A model generated the notes under the pieces. That model had not been told where the DNA came from. It did not search any database and saw nothing but the letters and a program-made list of their open reading frames with translations. The position numbers and the translations under genes were made by a program. Below are positions 3,101 through 14,590 of a DNA stretch of 39,135 nucleotides, piece after piece (position 1 is the first letter of the stretch; every line of letters starts with the position of its first letter). The stretch lies in NCBI GenBank assembly GCA_000934665.2, contig JYFJ02003661.1, positions 1 to 39,135 of the forward strand, read 5' to 3'. The DNA is from Catajapyx aquilonaris (lineage: Eukaryota).

Positions 3101-5092
3101 CAAAGTATGTATTTGGCATGTCATTTGGTGTCTGGTATTTTTGTAATGTAGTGTGAGTAGAGCCAAAACCTCTAATTCTCTAATCCCCCAAAAATGATAT
3201 TCAGTTTTTCTGCACTGCTTGTGGAGACTTGTCTGAACATGTAGCCCATGCAAATCACTGTGTATTAATTTGTGTTTTTCTTATCTATTAGGGTCTGGTT
3301 GCAAATGAGACTTTGGGCTACTTTATGGCTCGCATCCACCAATTCCTGGTGCGCATTGGCGTGAATGAGAAGAGGTTGCGCTTCCGGCAGCACATGGGCC
3401 AGGAGATGGCCCATTATGCAACTGACTGCTGGGATGCAGAGTGCCTGACTTCTTATGGCTGGGTGGAGTGCGTTGGGTGTGCTGATCGCTCAGCTTTTGA
3501 TCTTACCCAGCACACAAAAGCAACTGGAGTCAGAATGGCTGCAGAAAAGAAGCTCTCCACACCTGTTGTCAAGGATTTTGTTGGTTTGTTGGATTGCTTG
3601 AACTTATTTTGTGCAAATGGACATGCATACATGCTTGAAACAAGTCTACATAAAATAATTGTCTTGTTTAACAACTTGCAGAGGCCCAGCCAAACAAAGG
3701 AGTAATCGGAAAGGCATTTAAGAAAGAGGCCAAATTGGTCATGGATGCATTGATAGCACTAGACGAAGAGGGCTTATCCAACATGGAGCGAGATCTGGAG
3801 CACACTGGGTTAGTTGATGGTATTAGTAACACCACTTATTGTTCCTCAAATTGTCTATTTACACTTTTGAAAATTACAGGAAATATGCAGTTACCACTGG
3901 CAGTAACAGTTATGAAGTAACCAAAGAGATGGTGGCTGTCAGGAAGTACCAGAAGACTGTACATGTCGAGGATGTGATTCCCAGTGTTATTGAGCCATCC
4001 TTTGGCATTGGGCGTGTCATGTATGCCTTGTTTGAACACAATTTCCGCTCCAGAGATGATGAACAGAGAACAGTAAGTGCCTCTCATCCTAATTTGACGC
4101 TTATCAGTCAAAATTATATTTGTGTAAATTGGGAAGATGGGTGGAGATAGAGGGACACATGACTGTCCATTGTGAAAAGATAATGTAATTAGTGTGTTCC
4201 AAGTGAAGCGTTCTTAGTGGTTATGATTTTTTGAAGACCTAAGCTGTTCTGTTGGAAGAGCATGGATCTATCAAAAATATTGCCATATTAGAAAAGCATG
4301 TTTGACAACTTGGAAGAACGAGACAAGGATCCTGTGTGTGCTAACCACTTTGGACCTCTAATTTCAATCCTTGGTTGCCACAATCTACTGGCAGTAGTTG
4401 CTTCTGAGAATGACTACTGTAATTTACGATGTCTTTTTTTGTTTACAGTACTTTTCGCTCCCACCATTGGTGGCTCCTCTCAAATGCTCCGTACTTCCAT
4501 TGAGCAACAACACCGAGTTCCATCCACTGGTGAAAAGAATATGTACGCACCTTTTTAGACTGAATTATCTAAGTGTCTGTCACTATGCAAACTTTTGTTT
4601 CCTTTGCAGCAAGAGAGTTAACCAACGTGGATGTGTCACACAAGGTTGATGACTCCAGTGGATCCATTGGGCGGAGATATGCAAGGACAGACGAGATAGC
4701 AATCCCATTTGGTATCACGATTGACTTTGACAGCCTCAAGGAGCCACTGTCAGTTACGCTGCGGGAAAGAGACTCTATGGGTCAAGTGAGACTCCCGGTA
4801 TGTGAACTAGTAATGTTGCCAATCACCTCAAGAAAAACCTGGGGTGGAATTTTCGTCTATGCAGTAACTATCAGTGGGACGAAAATTCCATCCCTATTTA
4901 TAAATTATTAGTGAAATGTCTGTAACACAGGGTGACCTTGCCAATGTCTGCAATTAATAGCAACTACATACGATTTCATTTCAGGTGGATGACGTTGCCA
5001 ACGTTGTACGTGACCTGTCCTTAGGTCGCCTGACTTGGAGACAGGTGGAAGCAAAGTATCCCAAATTTGAGCAGCAAGAGTCAACCAAATGA
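180..5092 (+). CDS. GARS1: Glycyl-tRNA synthetase (5'-partial). Exons 180-390, 447-588, 648-813, 1470-1615, 1693-1842, 2016-2178, 3292-3583, 3682-3808, 3880-4072, 4449-4542, 4610-4797, 4985-5092
   Basis: WHEP-like start ([25 protein letters not shown]), then [62 protein letters not shown] and the anticodon-domain [11 protein letters not shown]. All junctions are GT-AG with consistent phase; TGA at 5090-5092. Confidence 0.97.
1006..1430 (+). mobile_element. tRNA-derived SINE in GARS intron
   Basis: tRNA-like head with A-box-like TAGTGG...GG and B-box GGTTCGAGTCC, a GC-rich body and a (TAAA)n tail. Perfect 16-bp target-site duplication AGTTACTAGTTGGTAG at 990-1005 and 1431-1446. Confidence 0.92.
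2242..2535 (+). CDS. Putative alternative (cassette) exon of GARS encoding an EF1-beta N-terminal/GST-C-like domain (98 aa)
   Basis: TTTTGTAG acceptor (2240-41) and CAG|GTGCTA donor (2536); 294 nt, phase 0/0, open in the GARS frame. [40 protein letters not shown]...[11 protein letters not shown] resembles EF1-beta GFGDL..[36 protein letters not shown]. Confidence 0.72.
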
Positions 5093-5160
5093 TGAGGGAA
5101 CGACAAATGCAATTTTGAAAATGGAGATAAAGATTGATAGAAAAATGGAACCATATCCTT

Positions 5161-5589
5161 TTATTCCTGTTTCTGCTTTAGATACAATGCTTGACAAACA
5201 GTCCATATTGGGATGTCGGAAATGGGAGGGATCCCATTCGCAGGTTTCGGCTTTGGTGTGTAAATAGCATGCTGATCCGTGAAGGTCCGAGTGTCATTAA
5301 ATGCTGGTACCATAGTCAAGTTTGTTGCTGGGTATATGCAGAATGCAAATAACCACAATATCACACTCACTGCAACTGGAATAGCAATTGCCCAGTACTT
5401 TTGTGGCCAGTAAGTGAAGCCCATAGCCACCAGCCATGGTGCTGGAATATATGCCCAGCACAAGTACAAACACATGCAGCTCATAGAGACTACGTATAGG
5501 CCAAATCCATACACAGCACGGCCTGGTGTTGGTGCTGGGCTGTGTTCAGGTGGTTCTAAGATGTGGTCAGGAATCCTTCTGTTACTCAT
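5161..5589 (-). CDS. PIGP: GPI-GlcNAc transferase subunit P, intronless, 142 aa
   Basis: PEHSPAPTPGRAVYGF, YLCWAYIP, GFTYWPQKYWAIAIP and IPPISDIPI are PIG-P family motifs; two hydrophobic segments. Confidence 0.93.
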   Translation of the reverse strand: MSNRRIPDHILEPPEHSPAPTPGRAVYGFGLYVVSMSCMCLYLCWAYIPAPWLVAMGFTYWPQKYWAIAIPVAVSVILWLFAFCIYPATNLTMVPAFNDTRTFTDQHAIYTPKPKPANGIPPISDIPIWTVCQALYLKQKQE

Positions 5590-6002
5590 AGCGAGAACTG
5601 GTCCATTGTTTCAGTGACTAGCGACAACAGATCAAAGAAAGATGTAACACTGGTCCGCAAATTCCGCAGATTTTTAGATTCAAAGTGCCTGTTGGAATGA
5701 ATAGGTTAAGAAATATTCAGGGACAAATCTGAAGGGTCTGGCGTTGATACGTACGCTTTCAAAATATTGTCTTGGACTGACAGCTTCTTTGTGACTCCTC
5801 CTCTGACTGGTTCTACATCAACACGTAGAGCATCGTAGGCAATCTTTGCTTGTTCTGCTTCTGGGAACGGCACCTCCAACAACCTGCGTAAAAATTCAGA
5901 ATAGTTTTACGCAACCGCTTACTGCATTTTATGCTTCAATAGTGCTAGTACCAAAGACGTGTGAATATCTTACAGTTCAGCTGGTGCGTCGCTGGCTGCC
6001 AT
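5586..6002 (-). CDS. LAGE3: KEOPS/EKC subunit Pcc1/LAGE3, 86 aa. Exons 6002-5974, 5883-5755, 5688-5586
   Basis: Spliced translation: MAASDAPAELLLEVPFPEAEQAKIAYDALRVDVEPVRGGVTKKLSVQDNILKAHFESKNLRNLRTSVTSFFDLLSLVTETMDQFSL. Matches the Pcc1 pattern (VPFP..A.IA..L..D.EP; LR.SV..F.D.L.LV..TM..F). Two GT-AG introns; 261 nt total. Confidence 0.9.
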
Positions 6003-7456
6003 TCCTACACCATTGTTCTGAAGCGTTCTGAAGTGTTCTCTTTTTCACCTTCACAAACTGCAATGTTCAGGACAGCATGGTGAACACCTGGGTGAACACT
6101 CTGCTCACAGATGGCCCTAAATGCATTAAAAAAATGCAAATCCAAGCCCCCCCCCCCCCCCCAAATAATTTTAACTTCACAATTAACCTGAACCCTTCAC
6201 CTGAACATAATTACCTCAAAATTGTCATTTATATTAGTTATTGCGAAGAACGTTGGTGAGAAAATGTCACAACATTGGCTATATCAGTTATATTAGTTAC
6301 TTTTCATGAACGACCACTGTCGGTAACTCGGGATATGCCTTTTTTTGAATTGGAACGGGTTGGAAGTTAAACACAGGTGTACTGGCCTTCACTAATTGTT
6401 ACACCGAGTGTTACACACATCTTTGTAAGCTCCGTATGGACCAGCTCAGCGCATCAAATGGCCCCCGTTTTGTAGCTAATATAACCGTTGCAAGTAATAA
6501 TAGCTAGAAATCAGCGCCCTCTTTCATACCATGCGATGTGGTTGCCCTCTGGTGTCAAATAATACACACTAATTGCACTCTTTTTTTTTTTTCTTCCCTT
6601 TCTTCTTATTTTTTTTGTTTGCTCCATCTCTTGTCTCAGCCTGACTTTCGTCCGAGTCAGTTGTGCGTACAAAATCTCTCTCTCTCGCTGTGGGAGAGAG
6701 TCTCGCTGCTGTGGTGGTGTGGATATCTCCCCCTTCCATTTGTTGCGTTGTGATCTCCGTCTCTTTGTTGCTGCATGGATACCAGGGGGATCCAACATCC
6801 CTGCCACTTGTAGGGCCTTCCCTTCCACCCCTCCACCTCTTTTGTTGTTCATCCGACCAAAAATAGCCCCCCCTCCCCCTCCTCCTCCACCCTCCCCAAG
6901 GCAGGCAACATAAGAAGAAAAGAAAAAAAAGTGAGTCCGTTATGATCTTTTGTCTCCCCCACATTTTTATTGCAGAGATTTTATGTGTAACTAGAGCATG
7001 ACCAGCGTCTGTGTGATGTACATATACTCGTGGCATGTAAGAGGGGGAGATTGATTGATAGAGAGGCCAGCTGGGGGTTTCTTTTTTGGGGGGGGGTCTG
7101 TTTCGTGTAGGCCTGGGTCAATGGCAGGCACTCTGTTGGGTAAGAGGTGTTTGCATGTCGGATGTTACTAAATGGCATTCACAAAGTCGCACTTTCAGAT
7201 GGGGATGGTGTGAAATGGTTTTGTGAACATGCAGTCAAGGGCGCTTGGCAATAATAATGACAATTATGAAAAATATGCCGTAAATAATATGCAAATTTTG
7301 TAGTAGATTACAATTATTGAATTTTTATCAAATTGCTGCTCTGTACCATGTTTTGTTACGCTGCAGAATATGGGATGGCCTACTGAGTGATGTGGTTCGA
7401 GGGGTTGTGTGAAACAGTTGCCTCAATGTGGCTTAGATGAAATGAAAGTATTATTA

Positions 7457-12343: not shown

Positions 12344-12919
12344 TCAGAGACCCAAAAGTGTTTCGAATGCCATCAGTTGCTTCACAAATCCATCATTTGG
12401 TCTAGCTGCTGGCCTCTTATCCTTCACAACTATGTAAGCATCCTTGTATTTCATATTCGCAGATTCCATCAAATAGCCAATTGCAACAGCGCATGCTCTG
12501 GAAACTCCAGCATTGCAATGGACCAAAACATGACCACCTTTGGCCTCATTAATAAACTTGAAACACTCTGGAAAATATGCCAGTAGATCTGTCTCAGGGA
12601 GGTCCATAATGCTAACACATTTGTGCACAAAGCCGCTTGGAACTTGAACAGGGCAGAGGCTTAAAATGTGTGTAACAGAATGAGCAAGAAGTGTGGGCAA
12701 ATCAGCAGCTGCATCTTGTGATGATACGGACAGATGCGGAGTTATACATGCAACTTGCAAGTCTGGAGTCGGGTCAGAAACAAACCCTAAGGCACCAGTT
12801 GACTGCAATGTGACAACACCGTGATCGTCCGTAAATACAAGTCCATCACTGGTGGTTAAGCGGGTTTTGCTCGAGCGAAGAGCAGTCTTCTGTTTGGCTA
12901 TCATCTCCTGCAGTGACAT
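12344..12919 (-). CDS. DUSP19: Atypical dual-specificity phosphatase, DUSP19-like, intronless, about 191 aa
   Basis: Catalytic VHCNAGVSRA, DLPETDL and RPNDGFVKQL. N-terminus MSLQEMI..K..LR..KTRLTT..G and D.TPDLQV are DUSP19-like. An upstream in-frame ATG exists at 12958. Confidence 0.85.
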   Translation of the reverse strand: MSLQEMIAKQKTALRSSKTRLTTSDGLVFTDDHGVVTLQSTGALGFVSDPTPDLQVACITPHLSVSSQDAAADLPTLLAHSVTHILSLCPVQVPSGFVHKCVSIMDLPETDLLAYFPECFKFINEAKGGHVLVHCNAGVSRACAVAIGYLMESANMKYKDAYIVVKDKRPAARPNDGFVKQLMAFETLLGL

Positions 12920-14590
12920 CTTCTGGGTTGTATTCAACGTCAAGTAAAAACAGACCATGAGGTGGTGCTGGTATTGCCCTGGGATTCCAGCTTTTGATAC
13001 CCGGATTGTCCAGCATCCACTTTATGTCTTCTAGAGTGATCCGACCTGTGGCTGCAGCCACCAACGCACCAATTGTTCTCCGCACTTGCTTGTATGCAAA
13101 TGACTTCCCAGAAAACACTACATCAATGAATTCTGCATTTTGATACAGAGGATCATACTGGGCATCCAATAAAGGACGGCCTGATGTCACAACAACTGAT
13201 TCAAGATTTCGAACTGGACTCCGGATTGGGTTGCTTCCAGCTGCAGTGAAGGTTGTGAAGTCACGGAGGCCTGGAAACAGCTGTGCACCTTCCTTGAACG
13301 TGTCCAGGTCAAACGGGGGCATCAACACATGGCAACGGTTCCATTCTGACATTGGCACCAGTGCGTGAGGTTTGTACGTAGTACAGTATGAGGCATCACA
13401 TCCAGGCTTGAGTACAAGTAACCGGTATAGGTAACGTCTCCTTATGGCAGTATGGCGGGCATGAAAAGTGCTGGGGACGATTACAGTCTTATGAATTCTG
13501 GAAGTAAAATTTGATCATGTGTAAATATTATGGAGGAATTCATAATTAGTCTAAAATTTAAAATATGAACACTACACTCCAGTTGCTTTTACGAAATGGA
13601 AGTTATTACAAGTACACTACATGTGAAATTAACATTTTCATATGAATTTTCAATAATTTTTTTTTGTGTGTAAAAATCAAGGCATTCATGACCTCATTAA
13701 ATGAAATCATGAGGTTTTGTTGCCTTATGAAATTTTCATAAGGCATGTTTCTCTAATCTGCAGAGAGGTCTTGCAAAATTTTTAATGTTAAGGAATATTA
13801 TGTTCCGTGTTCTTAGATTATAATCCGTAACTTATATTTCCTGCAATTCAAATAGATATTTTTTCAGAACGAAAAAATATCTATTTGAATTGCAGGAAAT
13901 ATAAGTTACAGATTATAATCTAAGAATACGGACGTTTGGATGAATTTGTAATACGAAAGAGATCACCTGACTTCCCGGCTCTGGCGCTCAAAGTACTTGT
14001 TGAGAACAATGGTGAGTGACTTGGGATCATAGTGTGCCTCAGGGGCTTTGGGGTGCAGGAGGTCCACATGGGCTGTTGTTCTCAGGGCATGGACACCCTT
14101 GTCAGTTCTGCAAGATCATCACAGTGAGAGAGCATCAATAGCGTAGAATATGAGATCAAAAAACTGATCAAACTTGTACCAAAAAAAATTTGCGTTTTTG
14201 CTTATTTTAAGTGAATGTGGTAAAATGCAATTTTCAACCCAATTTCTTGCGTTTTCAATTAATTTCAATTACTTGTTACAATAAAATGCCATTTTACTCT
14301 GTCAATAATTACCTGCTTGACGAGTAGACCCGTATCTCATTCGCAGGATTCACCTTTTCCAACGCCAACTCCAAAGTCCCTTGCACCGACAGTGGATCAG
14401 GTGATGACCTATCTGAATTTATATACTGCTTCTGAAGACCCCTAAATGAATGTTAAAATGAAAACAATGTAACTTGGGTGGGAAAAAAAATCAGCATCGT
14501 TAAAGCTCAGTGCATCATTCATTGTTCGTTACATTGCAATTACCTAAATCCAGTACCGATGTACGAGTAATACAACAGGTACCGCCTCAT
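12846..14590 (-). CDS. PUSL1: tRNA pseudouridine synthase-like 1 (TruA family), 322 aa. Exons 14590-14544, 14441-14313, 14107-13967, 13497-12846
   Basis: MRRYLLYYSYIGTGFRGLQ, catalytic SSRTDKGVHA, FHARH..RRYLYR, SFAYKQVRR and APPHGLFL. GT-AG junctions in phase. Confidence 0.92.
13804..13932. repeat. Near-perfect inverted repeat (62-bp arms, 5-nt loop) in PUSL1 intron
   Basis: 13804-13865 is the reverse complement of 13871-13932 with 2 mismatches; loop AGAAC. Confidence 0.95.

What the first reader, a model, noticed from the sequence alone, without database searches (positions are those of the whole stretch)
5161..6002. Pcc1/LAGE3-PIGP dicistronic unit with a prokaryote-style ATGA stop/start overlap
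Seen: the three-exon Pcc1 ORF ends ...CTA TGA (5588-5586) and its stop overlaps the PIGP ATG (5589-5587), leaving no intergenic DNA. This ATG is the only in-frame Met before the conserved PEHSPAP motif; the next lies inside the first TM helix. Pcc1 contains three internal AUGs, which argues against simple leaky scanning, and no UGGGA (calicivirus TURBS motif) is present upstream. Known: AUGA overlaps drive translational coupling in bacteria and termination-reinitiation in some viruses, and dicistronic mRNAs occur in arthropods. Inference: t6A-pathway and GPI-anchor subunits are made from one mRNA by reinitiation. This pairing may already be known in insects; I cannot verify that here.
Basis: partly seen in the sequence, partly recalled or inferred. 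Interest (0 to 1): 0.78.

Follow-up and report, generated by a model that had tools for sequence, protein, structure and literature searches.

The report
Arthropod two-protein mRNA: Pcc1 and PIG-P
Two unrelated housekeeping genes, one for tRNA modification and one for making membrane anchors, share one messenger RNA here as they do in fruit flies, and the bacteria-like four-letter overlap between them looks like a chance detail of an old arthropod arrangement.

Summary
In detail: a three-exon Pcc1 ORF (86 aa) ends on ATGA, overlapping the start of a PIG-P ORF (142 aa). One spliced contig of a public run spans both ORFs with both introns removed. The pairing is in print for Drosophila (CG42498/CG14550, dicistronic only, 34-nt overlap) and was traced to Bombyx. 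Here, Pcc1 lay directly upstream of PIG-P in 20 of 69 related loci, including mite-, termite- and hymenopteran-like ones, and automated models from a millipede, mites and a cricket join the two. None of the 20 has ATGA: spacing runs from -14 to +89 nt in all frames, and ATGA is the likeliest chance geometry. AUGs are scarce before PIG-P (observed/expected 0.52, against 1.31 inside PIG-P) and its start has a good context, which favours scanning past Pcc1 (about 0.55) over coupled reinitiation (about 0.2). Neither is shown. In 14 of 69 loci (one clusters with a copepod) PIG-P instead abuts sedlin/TRAPPC2, which I did not find in print. Verdict: new member of a known dicistron; the wider range and the partner swap are the additions.

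The parts
6003..6104 (-). 5' leader as far as covered by the spliced contig; the true start site is unknown
   Evidence: record 4 begins at 6104
6067..6078 (-). mini-uORF 1, 3 codons, A at -3
   Evidence: translation not shown
6005..6013 (-). mini-uORF 2, 2 codons, A at -3 and G at +4, ends 2 nt before the Pcc1 AUG
   Evidence: translation not shown
5974..6002 (-). Pcc1 coding exon 1 (start codon 6002-6000; G at -3, G at +4)
5884..5973 (-). Pcc1 intron 1, 90 nt, GT-AG
   Evidence: joint seen
5755..5883 (-). Pcc1 exon 2; out-of-frame AUGs at 5833 (6 codons) and 5818 (start-stop)
   Evidence: PF09341 42.5 bits
5689..5754 (-). Pcc1 intron 2, 66 nt, GT-AG, phase 2
   Evidence: joint seen; same site and phase in 8 of 8 genomic loci modelled, the window included
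5586..5688 (-). Pcc1 exon 3 with stop TGA 5588-5586; in-frame AUG at 5606 in strong context, 17 nt before the PIG-P AUG
   Evidence: PF09341 30.7 bits
5586..5589 (-). ATGA overlap of Pcc1 stop and PIG-P start
   Evidence: not shared by 20 of 20 related junctions
5161..5589 (-). PIG-P ORF, single exon, 142 aa, about 13 residues longer at the N-terminus than insect M-P-E-H starts
   Evidence: PF08510 112.8 bits; alignment; one match in the own genome
5160..5165 (-). AATAAA overlapping the PIG-P stop; no AATAAA or ATTAAA between the Pcc1 stop and this one
   Evidence: use as poly(A) signal inferred; contig ends at 5166

Best explanation
This is the orthologue of the Drosophila CG42498/CG14550 locus: one spliced mRNA encodes Pcc1 (KEOPS subunit, first ORF) and PIG-P (GPI-GlcNAc transferase subunit, second ORF) as separate proteins. 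Shown: both ORFs, the splicing, a contig across both, the same order in other arthropods. Inferred: most ribosomes make Pcc1, and a minority reach the PIG-P AUG by cap-dependent scanning, leaking past the Pcc1 AUG or skipping it after the 2-codon uORF just before it, then leaking past or re-starting after the few short internal ORFs. PIG-P is then made at a low level. The ATGA overlap is incidental. I put the dicistronic structure at about 0.85 and this mechanism at about 0.55.
For: One 783-nt contig joins exons 1-3 and the PIG-P ORF, with no other joint there. No canonical poly(A) signal between the two stops in 9 of 11 lineages, the window included. FlyBase lists the fly pair as 'all di/polycistronic'. 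Spacing is free: +83 to +89, +55, +41/+40, +28, +5, +2, -1, -4, -8, -11, -14, -34 in the fly; TURBS-type reinitiation needs the codons within 20 nt and fades beyond about 30 (PMC10275272 section 13). AUG observed/expected before the PIG-P start is below 1 in 11 of 11 lineages (median 0.52; 24 seen, 52.7 expected), against 1.31 inside PIG-P and 1.16-2.14 in 7 of 7 other coding stretches of the window; algal bicistrons that work by leaky scanning give 0.48-0.49 (PMC11892635 section 8). The PIG-P AUG has a purine at -3 in 10 of 11 lineages, the intervening AUGs in 8 of 24 (Fisher p = 0.003). Of 6 lineages with a readable Pcc1 start, 3 have a 2-codon uORF within 20 nt of it and 2 have a pyrimidine at -3.
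Against: No translation data. In this species the Pcc1 AUG is in good context, and a strong in-frame AUG (5606) stands 17 nt before the PIG-P AUG; its ORF ends on the overlap, and the review says reinitiation after short uORFs is always downstream of the stop, so ribosomes must leak past it. The window has the weakest depletion of the 11 (0.74). Holding the protein fixed, out-of-frame AUGs are not depleted (16 seen, 15.8 expected): the deficit lies in amino-acid choice, and Met in arthropod Pcc1 cores (6 of 968) is not significantly below four non-arthropod cores (5 of 296, counted by eye; p = 0.14). Every lineage keeps 1-4 intervening AUGs. In 7 of 11 lineages start and stop lie within 15 nt, often with a lengthened PIG-P N-terminus, which coupling would also predict. 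The 4 sedlin loci tested hold 8-17 AUGs and no depletion. Lineages are related, so the p-values overstate the evidence; in L015 and L038 I took the nearer AUG as the PIG-P start over a weaker in-frame one further up. A good context at the PIG-P AUG also fits a PIG-P-only mRNA. One lineage has ATTAAA on the Pcc1 stop (L003) and one inside PIG-P (L024).
Confidence: 0.55

Rival explanations
1. Termination-reinitiation after the whole Pcc1 ORF: ribosomes that finish Pcc1 stay on the mRNA and restart at the nearby PIG-P AUG, without a TURBS.
For: Start and stop lie within 15 nt in 7 of 11 lineages although the PIG-P N-terminus varies in length. The strong AUG at 5606 would feed ribosomes to the same stop. 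Sedlin/PIG-P junctions are also mostly tight (3 to 32 nt in 11 of 14 loci; 78, 112 and 112 in the others) behind an AUG-rich ORF. TURBS-free reinitiation is reported for some viruses, the SART1 retrotransposon and some human mRNAs (PMC10275272 section 9).
Against: Gaps of +40 to +89 nt and an overlap of 34 nt occur in insects. ATGA occurs at its chance rate. No UGGGA and no unusual fold across the junction (z = 0.08). AUG scarcity inside Pcc1 is not needed under this model.
Confidence: 0.2
2. A second promoter inside Pcc1 makes a PIG-P-only mRNA; the long transcript is mainly a Pcc1 mRNA with PIG-P in its 3' part.
For: Contigs cannot show starts and merge overlapping transcripts. Most fly dicistronic loci also have monocistronic isoforms; only 45 of 159 are exclusively dicistronic (PMC4528330 passage). 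It would explain PIG-P behind AUG-rich sedlin.
Against: The fly orthologue is annotated without a monocistronic isoform. Such an mRNA would still meet the strong AUG at 5606 unless it starts within 17 nt of the PIG-P AUG. It does not explain AUG scarcity across the whole Pcc1 core. I ran no promoter scan.
Confidence: 0.15
3. Alternative cis-splicing or spliced-leader trans-splicing removes Pcc1 from PIG-P mRNAs.
For: An AG ending at 5618, after a 71% pyrimidine stretch, lies 28 nt before the PIG-P AUG. Spliced-leader trans-splicing exists in calanoid copepods (PMC4664967 passages).
Against: No such joint and no loose end in the Pcc1/PIG-P region (contigs drop rare forms). Use of that AG would leave the strong AUG at 5606 in place. 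The same paper found no leader in cyclopoid or harpacticoid data, and the one named sedlin cluster holds the cyclopoid Oithona nana.
Confidence: 0.07
4. A real Pcc1-PIG-P fusion protein is made by splicing, frameshift or read-through.
For: 3 of 150 PIG-P representatives carry both domains: Chamberlinius, Sarcoptes, Gryllus; a Blomia model does too.
Against: The joins differ between species, and two delete PIG-P's first helix, as gene predictors do when forcing one ORF. All three relative frames occur. Both annotated donors here are phase 2, and the only acceptor inside the open PIG-P frame (5598) does not match it. No fusion joint. A search for longer homologues found none among 41 candidates (weak evidence).
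Confidence: 0.03

Closest known systems
Drosophila CG42498 (Pcc1/Tcs6) - CG14550 (PIG-P) dicistronic locus (PMC2276209; PMC4528330 supplement files 5 and 7; CG42498 as Pcc1 in PMC4615747 table 3)
   Same: Same two families, order and strand; ORFs overlap; one transcript. Pair kept in Glossina, Aedes, Anopheles and Bombyx ESTs.
   Different: Overlap 4 nt here, 34 nt in the fly. PIG-P here has a longer N-terminus in place of the M-P-E-H start. The host is not close to any named insect in the SDHB search (best 85%, Artemia). Published range was Endopterygota.
Green-algal bicistrons translated by leaky scanning (PMC11892635)
   Same: Short first ORF, unrelated second ORF, AUG observed/expected near 0.5 before ORF 2.
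   Different: Shown by mutation in algae, not here. The first AUG is weak in algae but in good context in this species. PIG-P and Pcc1 terms were not found in the supplements of the algal catalogue PMC7896298.
TURBS termination-reinitiation (caliciviruses, influenza B) and other stop/start coupling (SART1, HvV190S)
   Same: AUGA overlap of stop and start, out of frame.
   Different: No UGGGA motif, no unusual fold, and spacing not conserved among orthologues.
Prokaryotic ATGA translational coupling (PMC6728339, search listing only)
   Same: Identical four-base geometry.
   Different: Spliced eukaryotic gene; geometry is a one-off among orthologues, at its chance rate.

Membership tests
Pcc1/LAGE3 (PF09341) | Match over the Pfam cut-off with an intact spliced ORF | tested here: met
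   Exon 2 42.5 bits, exon 3 30.7 bits, cut-off 20.9; 86-aa ORF; only match in the genome (1 candidate)
PIG-P (PF08510) | Match over the cut-off across the model, with the conserved motifs | tested here: met
   112.8 bits, model 2-121 of 121; alignment
Drosophila-type Pcc1/PIG-P dicistron | Pcc1 directly upstream of PIG-P on the same strand, with little or no spacer | tested here: met
   20 of 69 related loci
Drosophila-type Pcc1/PIG-P dicistron | Both ORFs on one mature mRNA molecule | tested here: inconclusive
   One spliced contig spans both and no canonical poly(A) signal lies between, but a contig is not a molecule and the run's kind is not on record
Drosophila-type Pcc1/PIG-P dicistron | No monocistronic PIG-P isoform; both proteins made from the shared mRNA | not testable with these tools
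   Needs CAGE, long reads, ribosome profiling
TURBS termination-reinitiation | UGGGA motif upstream of the stop | tested here: not met
   None on the coding strand
TURBS termination-reinitiation | Stop and start within about 20 nt | tested here: inconclusive
   Met in the window (-4) and 7 of 11 lineages; not met in 4 of 11 nor in Drosophila
TURBS termination-reinitiation | Structured RNA element before the overlap | tested here: not met
   5688-5560 folds as its shuffles do, z = 0.08; one stretch tested, pseudoknots not modelled
Leaky-scanning bicistron (algal type) | AUG scarcity before ORF 2 | tested here: met
   Median 0.52, 11 of 11 below 1; not met when the protein is held fixed
Leaky-scanning bicistron (algal type) | Weak context at the ORF 1 start | tested here: inconclusive
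   Purine at -3 in the window and 3 more of 6 lineages; pyrimidine in 2; nearby 2-codon uORF in 3
Leaky-scanning bicistron (algal type) | ORF 2 output changes inversely with ORF 1 start strength | not testable with these tools
   Needs a reporter

The most novel reading that the evidence does not exclude
PIG-P is an obligate second cistron across most arthropods: behind Pcc1 since before chelicerates, myriapods and hexapods split, behind sedlin/TRAPPC2 in copepod-like lineages, and behind a zinc-finger gene in one more locus. What is kept is low, indirect translation of PIG-P, not the partner. Behind sedlin, with 8-17 upstream AUGs and gaps mostly of 3-32 nt, scanning cannot plausibly reach it, so these loci, and tight junctions like this one, would be cellular cases of TURBS-free reinitiation after a full-length ORF, with a natural series of spacings from -34 to +112 nt to test. 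A further speculation: since Pcc1 helps modify the tRNAs that read AUG, t6A level could tune how many ribosomes pass the Pcc1 start.
Probability: 0.2. Interest if true: 0.72.

Novelty: new member of a known kind. Interest (0 to 1): 0.36.

Why it matters
The pair itself has been in print since 2008, and its eye-catching ATGA overlap is not conserved. What this adds: the arrangement reaches mites, probably millipedes, and hemimetabolous insects, so it is likely as old as arthropods; gene predictors turn it into false fusion proteins or would miss one ORF; knock-downs of fly Pcc1 or PIG-P would hit both genes; and PIG-P sits behind a different gene in copepod-like loci. How second ORFs on animal mRNAs are reached is an open question, and this small essential locus, with its natural range of spacings, is a convenient test case.

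Tried and rejected
ATGA as a conserved coupling signal: rejected. TURBS motif and junction structure: none found. Real fusion protein: rejected. Out-of-frame AUG depletion at fixed protein: no effect. Met depletion against non-arthropod Pcc1: not significant, small control; no DNA of a stand-alone eukaryotic Pcc1 was available, so that control is missing. Second copies in the own genome: one match each. Run search: no RNA holder listed on record; the one run listed has kind unknown, and I infer RNA from its four GT-AG joints. Naming the host lineage: SDHB hits are spread over crustaceans and insects at 85% or less among named ones; unresolved. Of the 69 loci, 35 gave no Pcc1 or sedlin hit; many have PIG-P unlike the arthropod set or under 200 nt upstream, and I read the upstream ORFs of only three (L026 zinc finger; L049 nothing recognisable; L055 a long ORF ending 11 nt or so before, not scanned against Pfam). 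Literature searches that found no account of the wider range or of sedlin/PIG-P: (open-access library only; file 1 of the PMC4528330 supplement could not be searched, and its other files were searched only for four terms). Earlier notes of the scan: none on this pair. No structure or complex prediction was run, as neither bears on the question.

Full report
Observation. On the minus strand a Pcc1 ORF of 86 codons is spread over three exons (6002-5974, 5883-5755, 5688-5586) with GT-AG introns of 90 and 66 nt, and its TGA (5588-5586) overlaps the ATG (5589-5587) of a single-exon, 142-aa PIG-P ORF ending at 5161. Pfam confirms both families, and each has one match in the genome.

Transcript. The run search listed one run, of unrecorded kind. 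Its contigs skip four GT-AG introns, so I take it for RNA. One 783-nt contig covers 6104-5166 without a differing letter, skips both Pcc1 introns where predicted, and carries the PIG-P ORF up to its last codons; no other joint or loose end appears in this region (8 records laid, 4 pieces not shown). A contig merges overlapping transcripts and shows no start sites, so this supports but does not prove a single mRNA. The first AATAAA after the Pcc1 stop lies on the PIG-P stop, so a Pcc1 mRNA should include PIG-P.

Host. The neighbouring SDHB gene has its best named hits in Artemia (85%), Anabrus (84%), stick insects and Daphnia (82-83%) (120 of 6124 hits listed); PIG-P is 49-55% identical to its four near hits, a spider and a wasp among them. 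It is an arthropod, probably a pancrustacean far from the named species; not resolved. Two earlier notes on this genome also call it arthropod-like.

What is in print. Hayden and Bosco 2008 (PMC2276209; passages; supplement passages and part 14 of file 2) list Drosophila CG14550 as a PIG-P main ORF with a Pcc1-like conserved upstream ORF, kept in Glossina, Aedes, Anopheles and Bombyx ESTs, range Endopterygota. The FlyBase rule-benders paper (PMC4528330; passages; supplement rows) lists CG14550/CG42498 as 'all di/polycistronic', unrelated, overlap 34 nt. PMC4615747 (passages) names CG42498 as Pcc1. All five insect PIG-P starts read M-P, so ATGA cannot form there. Searches found no account of the mechanism, of a wider range, or of other partners; the library is open-access only.

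Related loci. A scan of metagenome contigs gave 69 PIG-P loci. Profiles that I built from loci and the window found Pcc1 directly upstream on the same strand in 20 of 69, sedlin/TRAPPC2 in 14 of 69 and neither in 35. Pfam confirmed Pcc1 in 11 of 11 scanned (two last exons under the cut-off) and sedlin in 7 of 7. By similarity, the Pcc1 loci include cockroach/termite-like (75-76% to Diploptera PIG-P), hymenopteran-like (71-75% to Prorops) and mite loci (clusters holding Dermatophagoides and Tyrophagus); several have no named relative. Of 150 PIG-P representatives (943 found), 3 carry both domains: a millipede, a mite and a cricket; a Blomia model does too. Their joins differ and two lose PIG-P's first helix, so I read them as prediction errors that record adjacency. 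L009 lacks both introns present in its relatives L010 and L011 and spans both ORFs, a second likely mRNA. Pcc1 intron 2 has the same site and phase in 8 of 8 genomic loci modelled. The pairing therefore looks older than winged insects and probably as old as arthropods (inference).

The ATGA overlap. Distances from Pcc1 stop to PIG-P start in the 20 loci are +83 to +89 (6 loci), +55, +41, +40 (3), +28, +5, +2, -1, -8, -11 (2) and -14 (2); none is -4, and all three frames occur. In a null model from the window's composition, -4 is the commonest offset, 17.5% of AUG-started frames within 15 nt of a stop; 1 of 7 close-spaced lineages has it, 1.2 expected. The junction folds no better than shuffles. 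TURBS-type reinitiation needs an rRNA-pairing motif and codons within about 20 nt (PMC10275272; passages and sections 9 and 13); neither is a constant of this family. Closeness is common, though: 7 of 11 lineages lie within 15 nt.

How PIG-P is reached. For counts I kept 11 lineages (the window and L003, L009, L010, L015, L016, L018, L022, L024, L028, L038) and dropped 10 near-duplicates; Pcc1 exon 1 was left out. With a composition-based measure like that of the algal study (PMC11892635; abstract and section 8), AUG observed/expected before the PIG-P start is 0.18-0.74, median 0.52, against 0.82-2.09, median 1.31, inside PIG-P and 1.16-2.14 in seven other coding stretches of the window. The PIG-P AUG has a purine at -3 in 10 of 11, the intervening AUGs in 8 of 24, and AUGs inside PIG-P in 47 of 94. 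Five of six lineages with a readable Pcc1 start have a nearby 2-codon uORF or a weak context. This is the pattern of scanning. Against it: with the protein held fixed, out-of-frame AUGs are at expectation (16 against 15.8); Met scarcity is not significant against four solved non-arthropod Pcc1 cores; the window has the weakest depletion and a strong in-frame AUG 17 nt before PIG-P; and the lineages are related. I give scanning with leakage and short-ORF restarts about 0.55, coupling after full Pcc1 0.2, an internal promoter 0.15, splicing 0.07, fusion 0.03. No step of translation is shown.

Partner swap. In 14 loci PIG-P follows sedlin at 3, 3, 3, 8, 8, 8, 8, 28, 30, 32, 78, 112, 112 and -1/+5 nt; one sedlin cluster holds the copepod Oithona nana, and the copepod label for the rest is inferred. 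In the 4 intron-free loci counted, 8-17 AUGs precede PIG-P, with no depletion. In L026 the upstream ORF is a zinc-finger gene. This weakens a functional tie between t6A and GPI synthesis and suggests that PIG-P tends to be a second cistron. Spliced leaders are known in calanoid copepods but were not found in cyclopoid data (PMC4664967 passages). Whether these loci give one mRNA is untested.

Verdict. A real feature and a new member of a known dicistron. The headline ATGA geometry is most likely chance. The wider range and the sedlin swap were not found in the searches named above and carry the remaining interest. Interest 0.36; the boldest reading, TURBS-free reinitiation after a full ORF on cellular mRNAs with PIG-P as a standing second cistron, has probability about 0.2 and would deserve about 0.72. 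The roles of KEOPS in t6A synthesis and of PIG-P in GPI synthesis rest on the family names and on established knowledge, not on tests here.

Noticed in passing
window 13514-12344, minus strand: A second same-strand overlap: the last exon of a TruA-type pseudouridine synthase (PF01416, stop at 12846) overlaps a dual-specificity phosphatase ORF (PF00782) whose likely start is 12919 (other Mets at 12958 and 12904), about 74 nt of overlap. Another candidate two-ORF transcript.
   Followed up: partly
L019-L021, L023, L025, L029-L033, L036, L037, L040, L044: PIG-P directly follows sedlin/TRAPPC2 (PF04628 in 7 of 7 scanned), gaps 3-112 nt, one with a TAATG overlap option; one sedlin cluster holds Oithona nana. 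Not found in print.
   Followed up: partly
L026:3-614: A C2H2 zinc-finger ORF ends at the PIG-P start (in-frame AUGs at 604 and 637), a third upstream partner.
   Followed up: partly
window 5090-5166: Glycyl-tRNA synthetase (plus strand) ends tail to tail with PIG-P: 68 nt between the stops; its contig reaches 5113 and the PIG-P contig 5166, so the 3' ends probably abut or overlap.
   Followed up: partly
L009:20-28, L010:71-79, L011:3520-3528: In hymenopteran-like loci a 2-codon uORF ends on an ATGA overlap with the Pcc1 start codon itself.
   Followed up: partly
window 5923-5944, minus strand: Intron 1 holds a 22-nt stretch flanked by AG and GTAAG that looks like a micro-exon; inclusion would stop the Pcc1 frame early. 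Not seen in the contig.
   Followed up: no
L016:200-295, L017:1200-1282: A further same-strand ORF appears to end about 130 nt before the Pcc1 exon-2 acceptor in these loci; family not checked.
   Followed up: no
P0013, P0082, P0118, P0155, P0291: Public gene models of Chamberlinius, Sarcoptes, Gryllus and Blomia fuse Pcc1 to PIG-P, probably in error; a 277-aa Tyrophagus model in a Pcc1 cluster (P0367) may be another, not scanned.
   Followed up: partly
window 9600-38919: Gene-dense neighbourhood: Arf-family GTPase, Rer1, tRNA m1G methyltransferase, granulin, alpha-mannosidase (Pfam) and SDHB.
   Followed up: no
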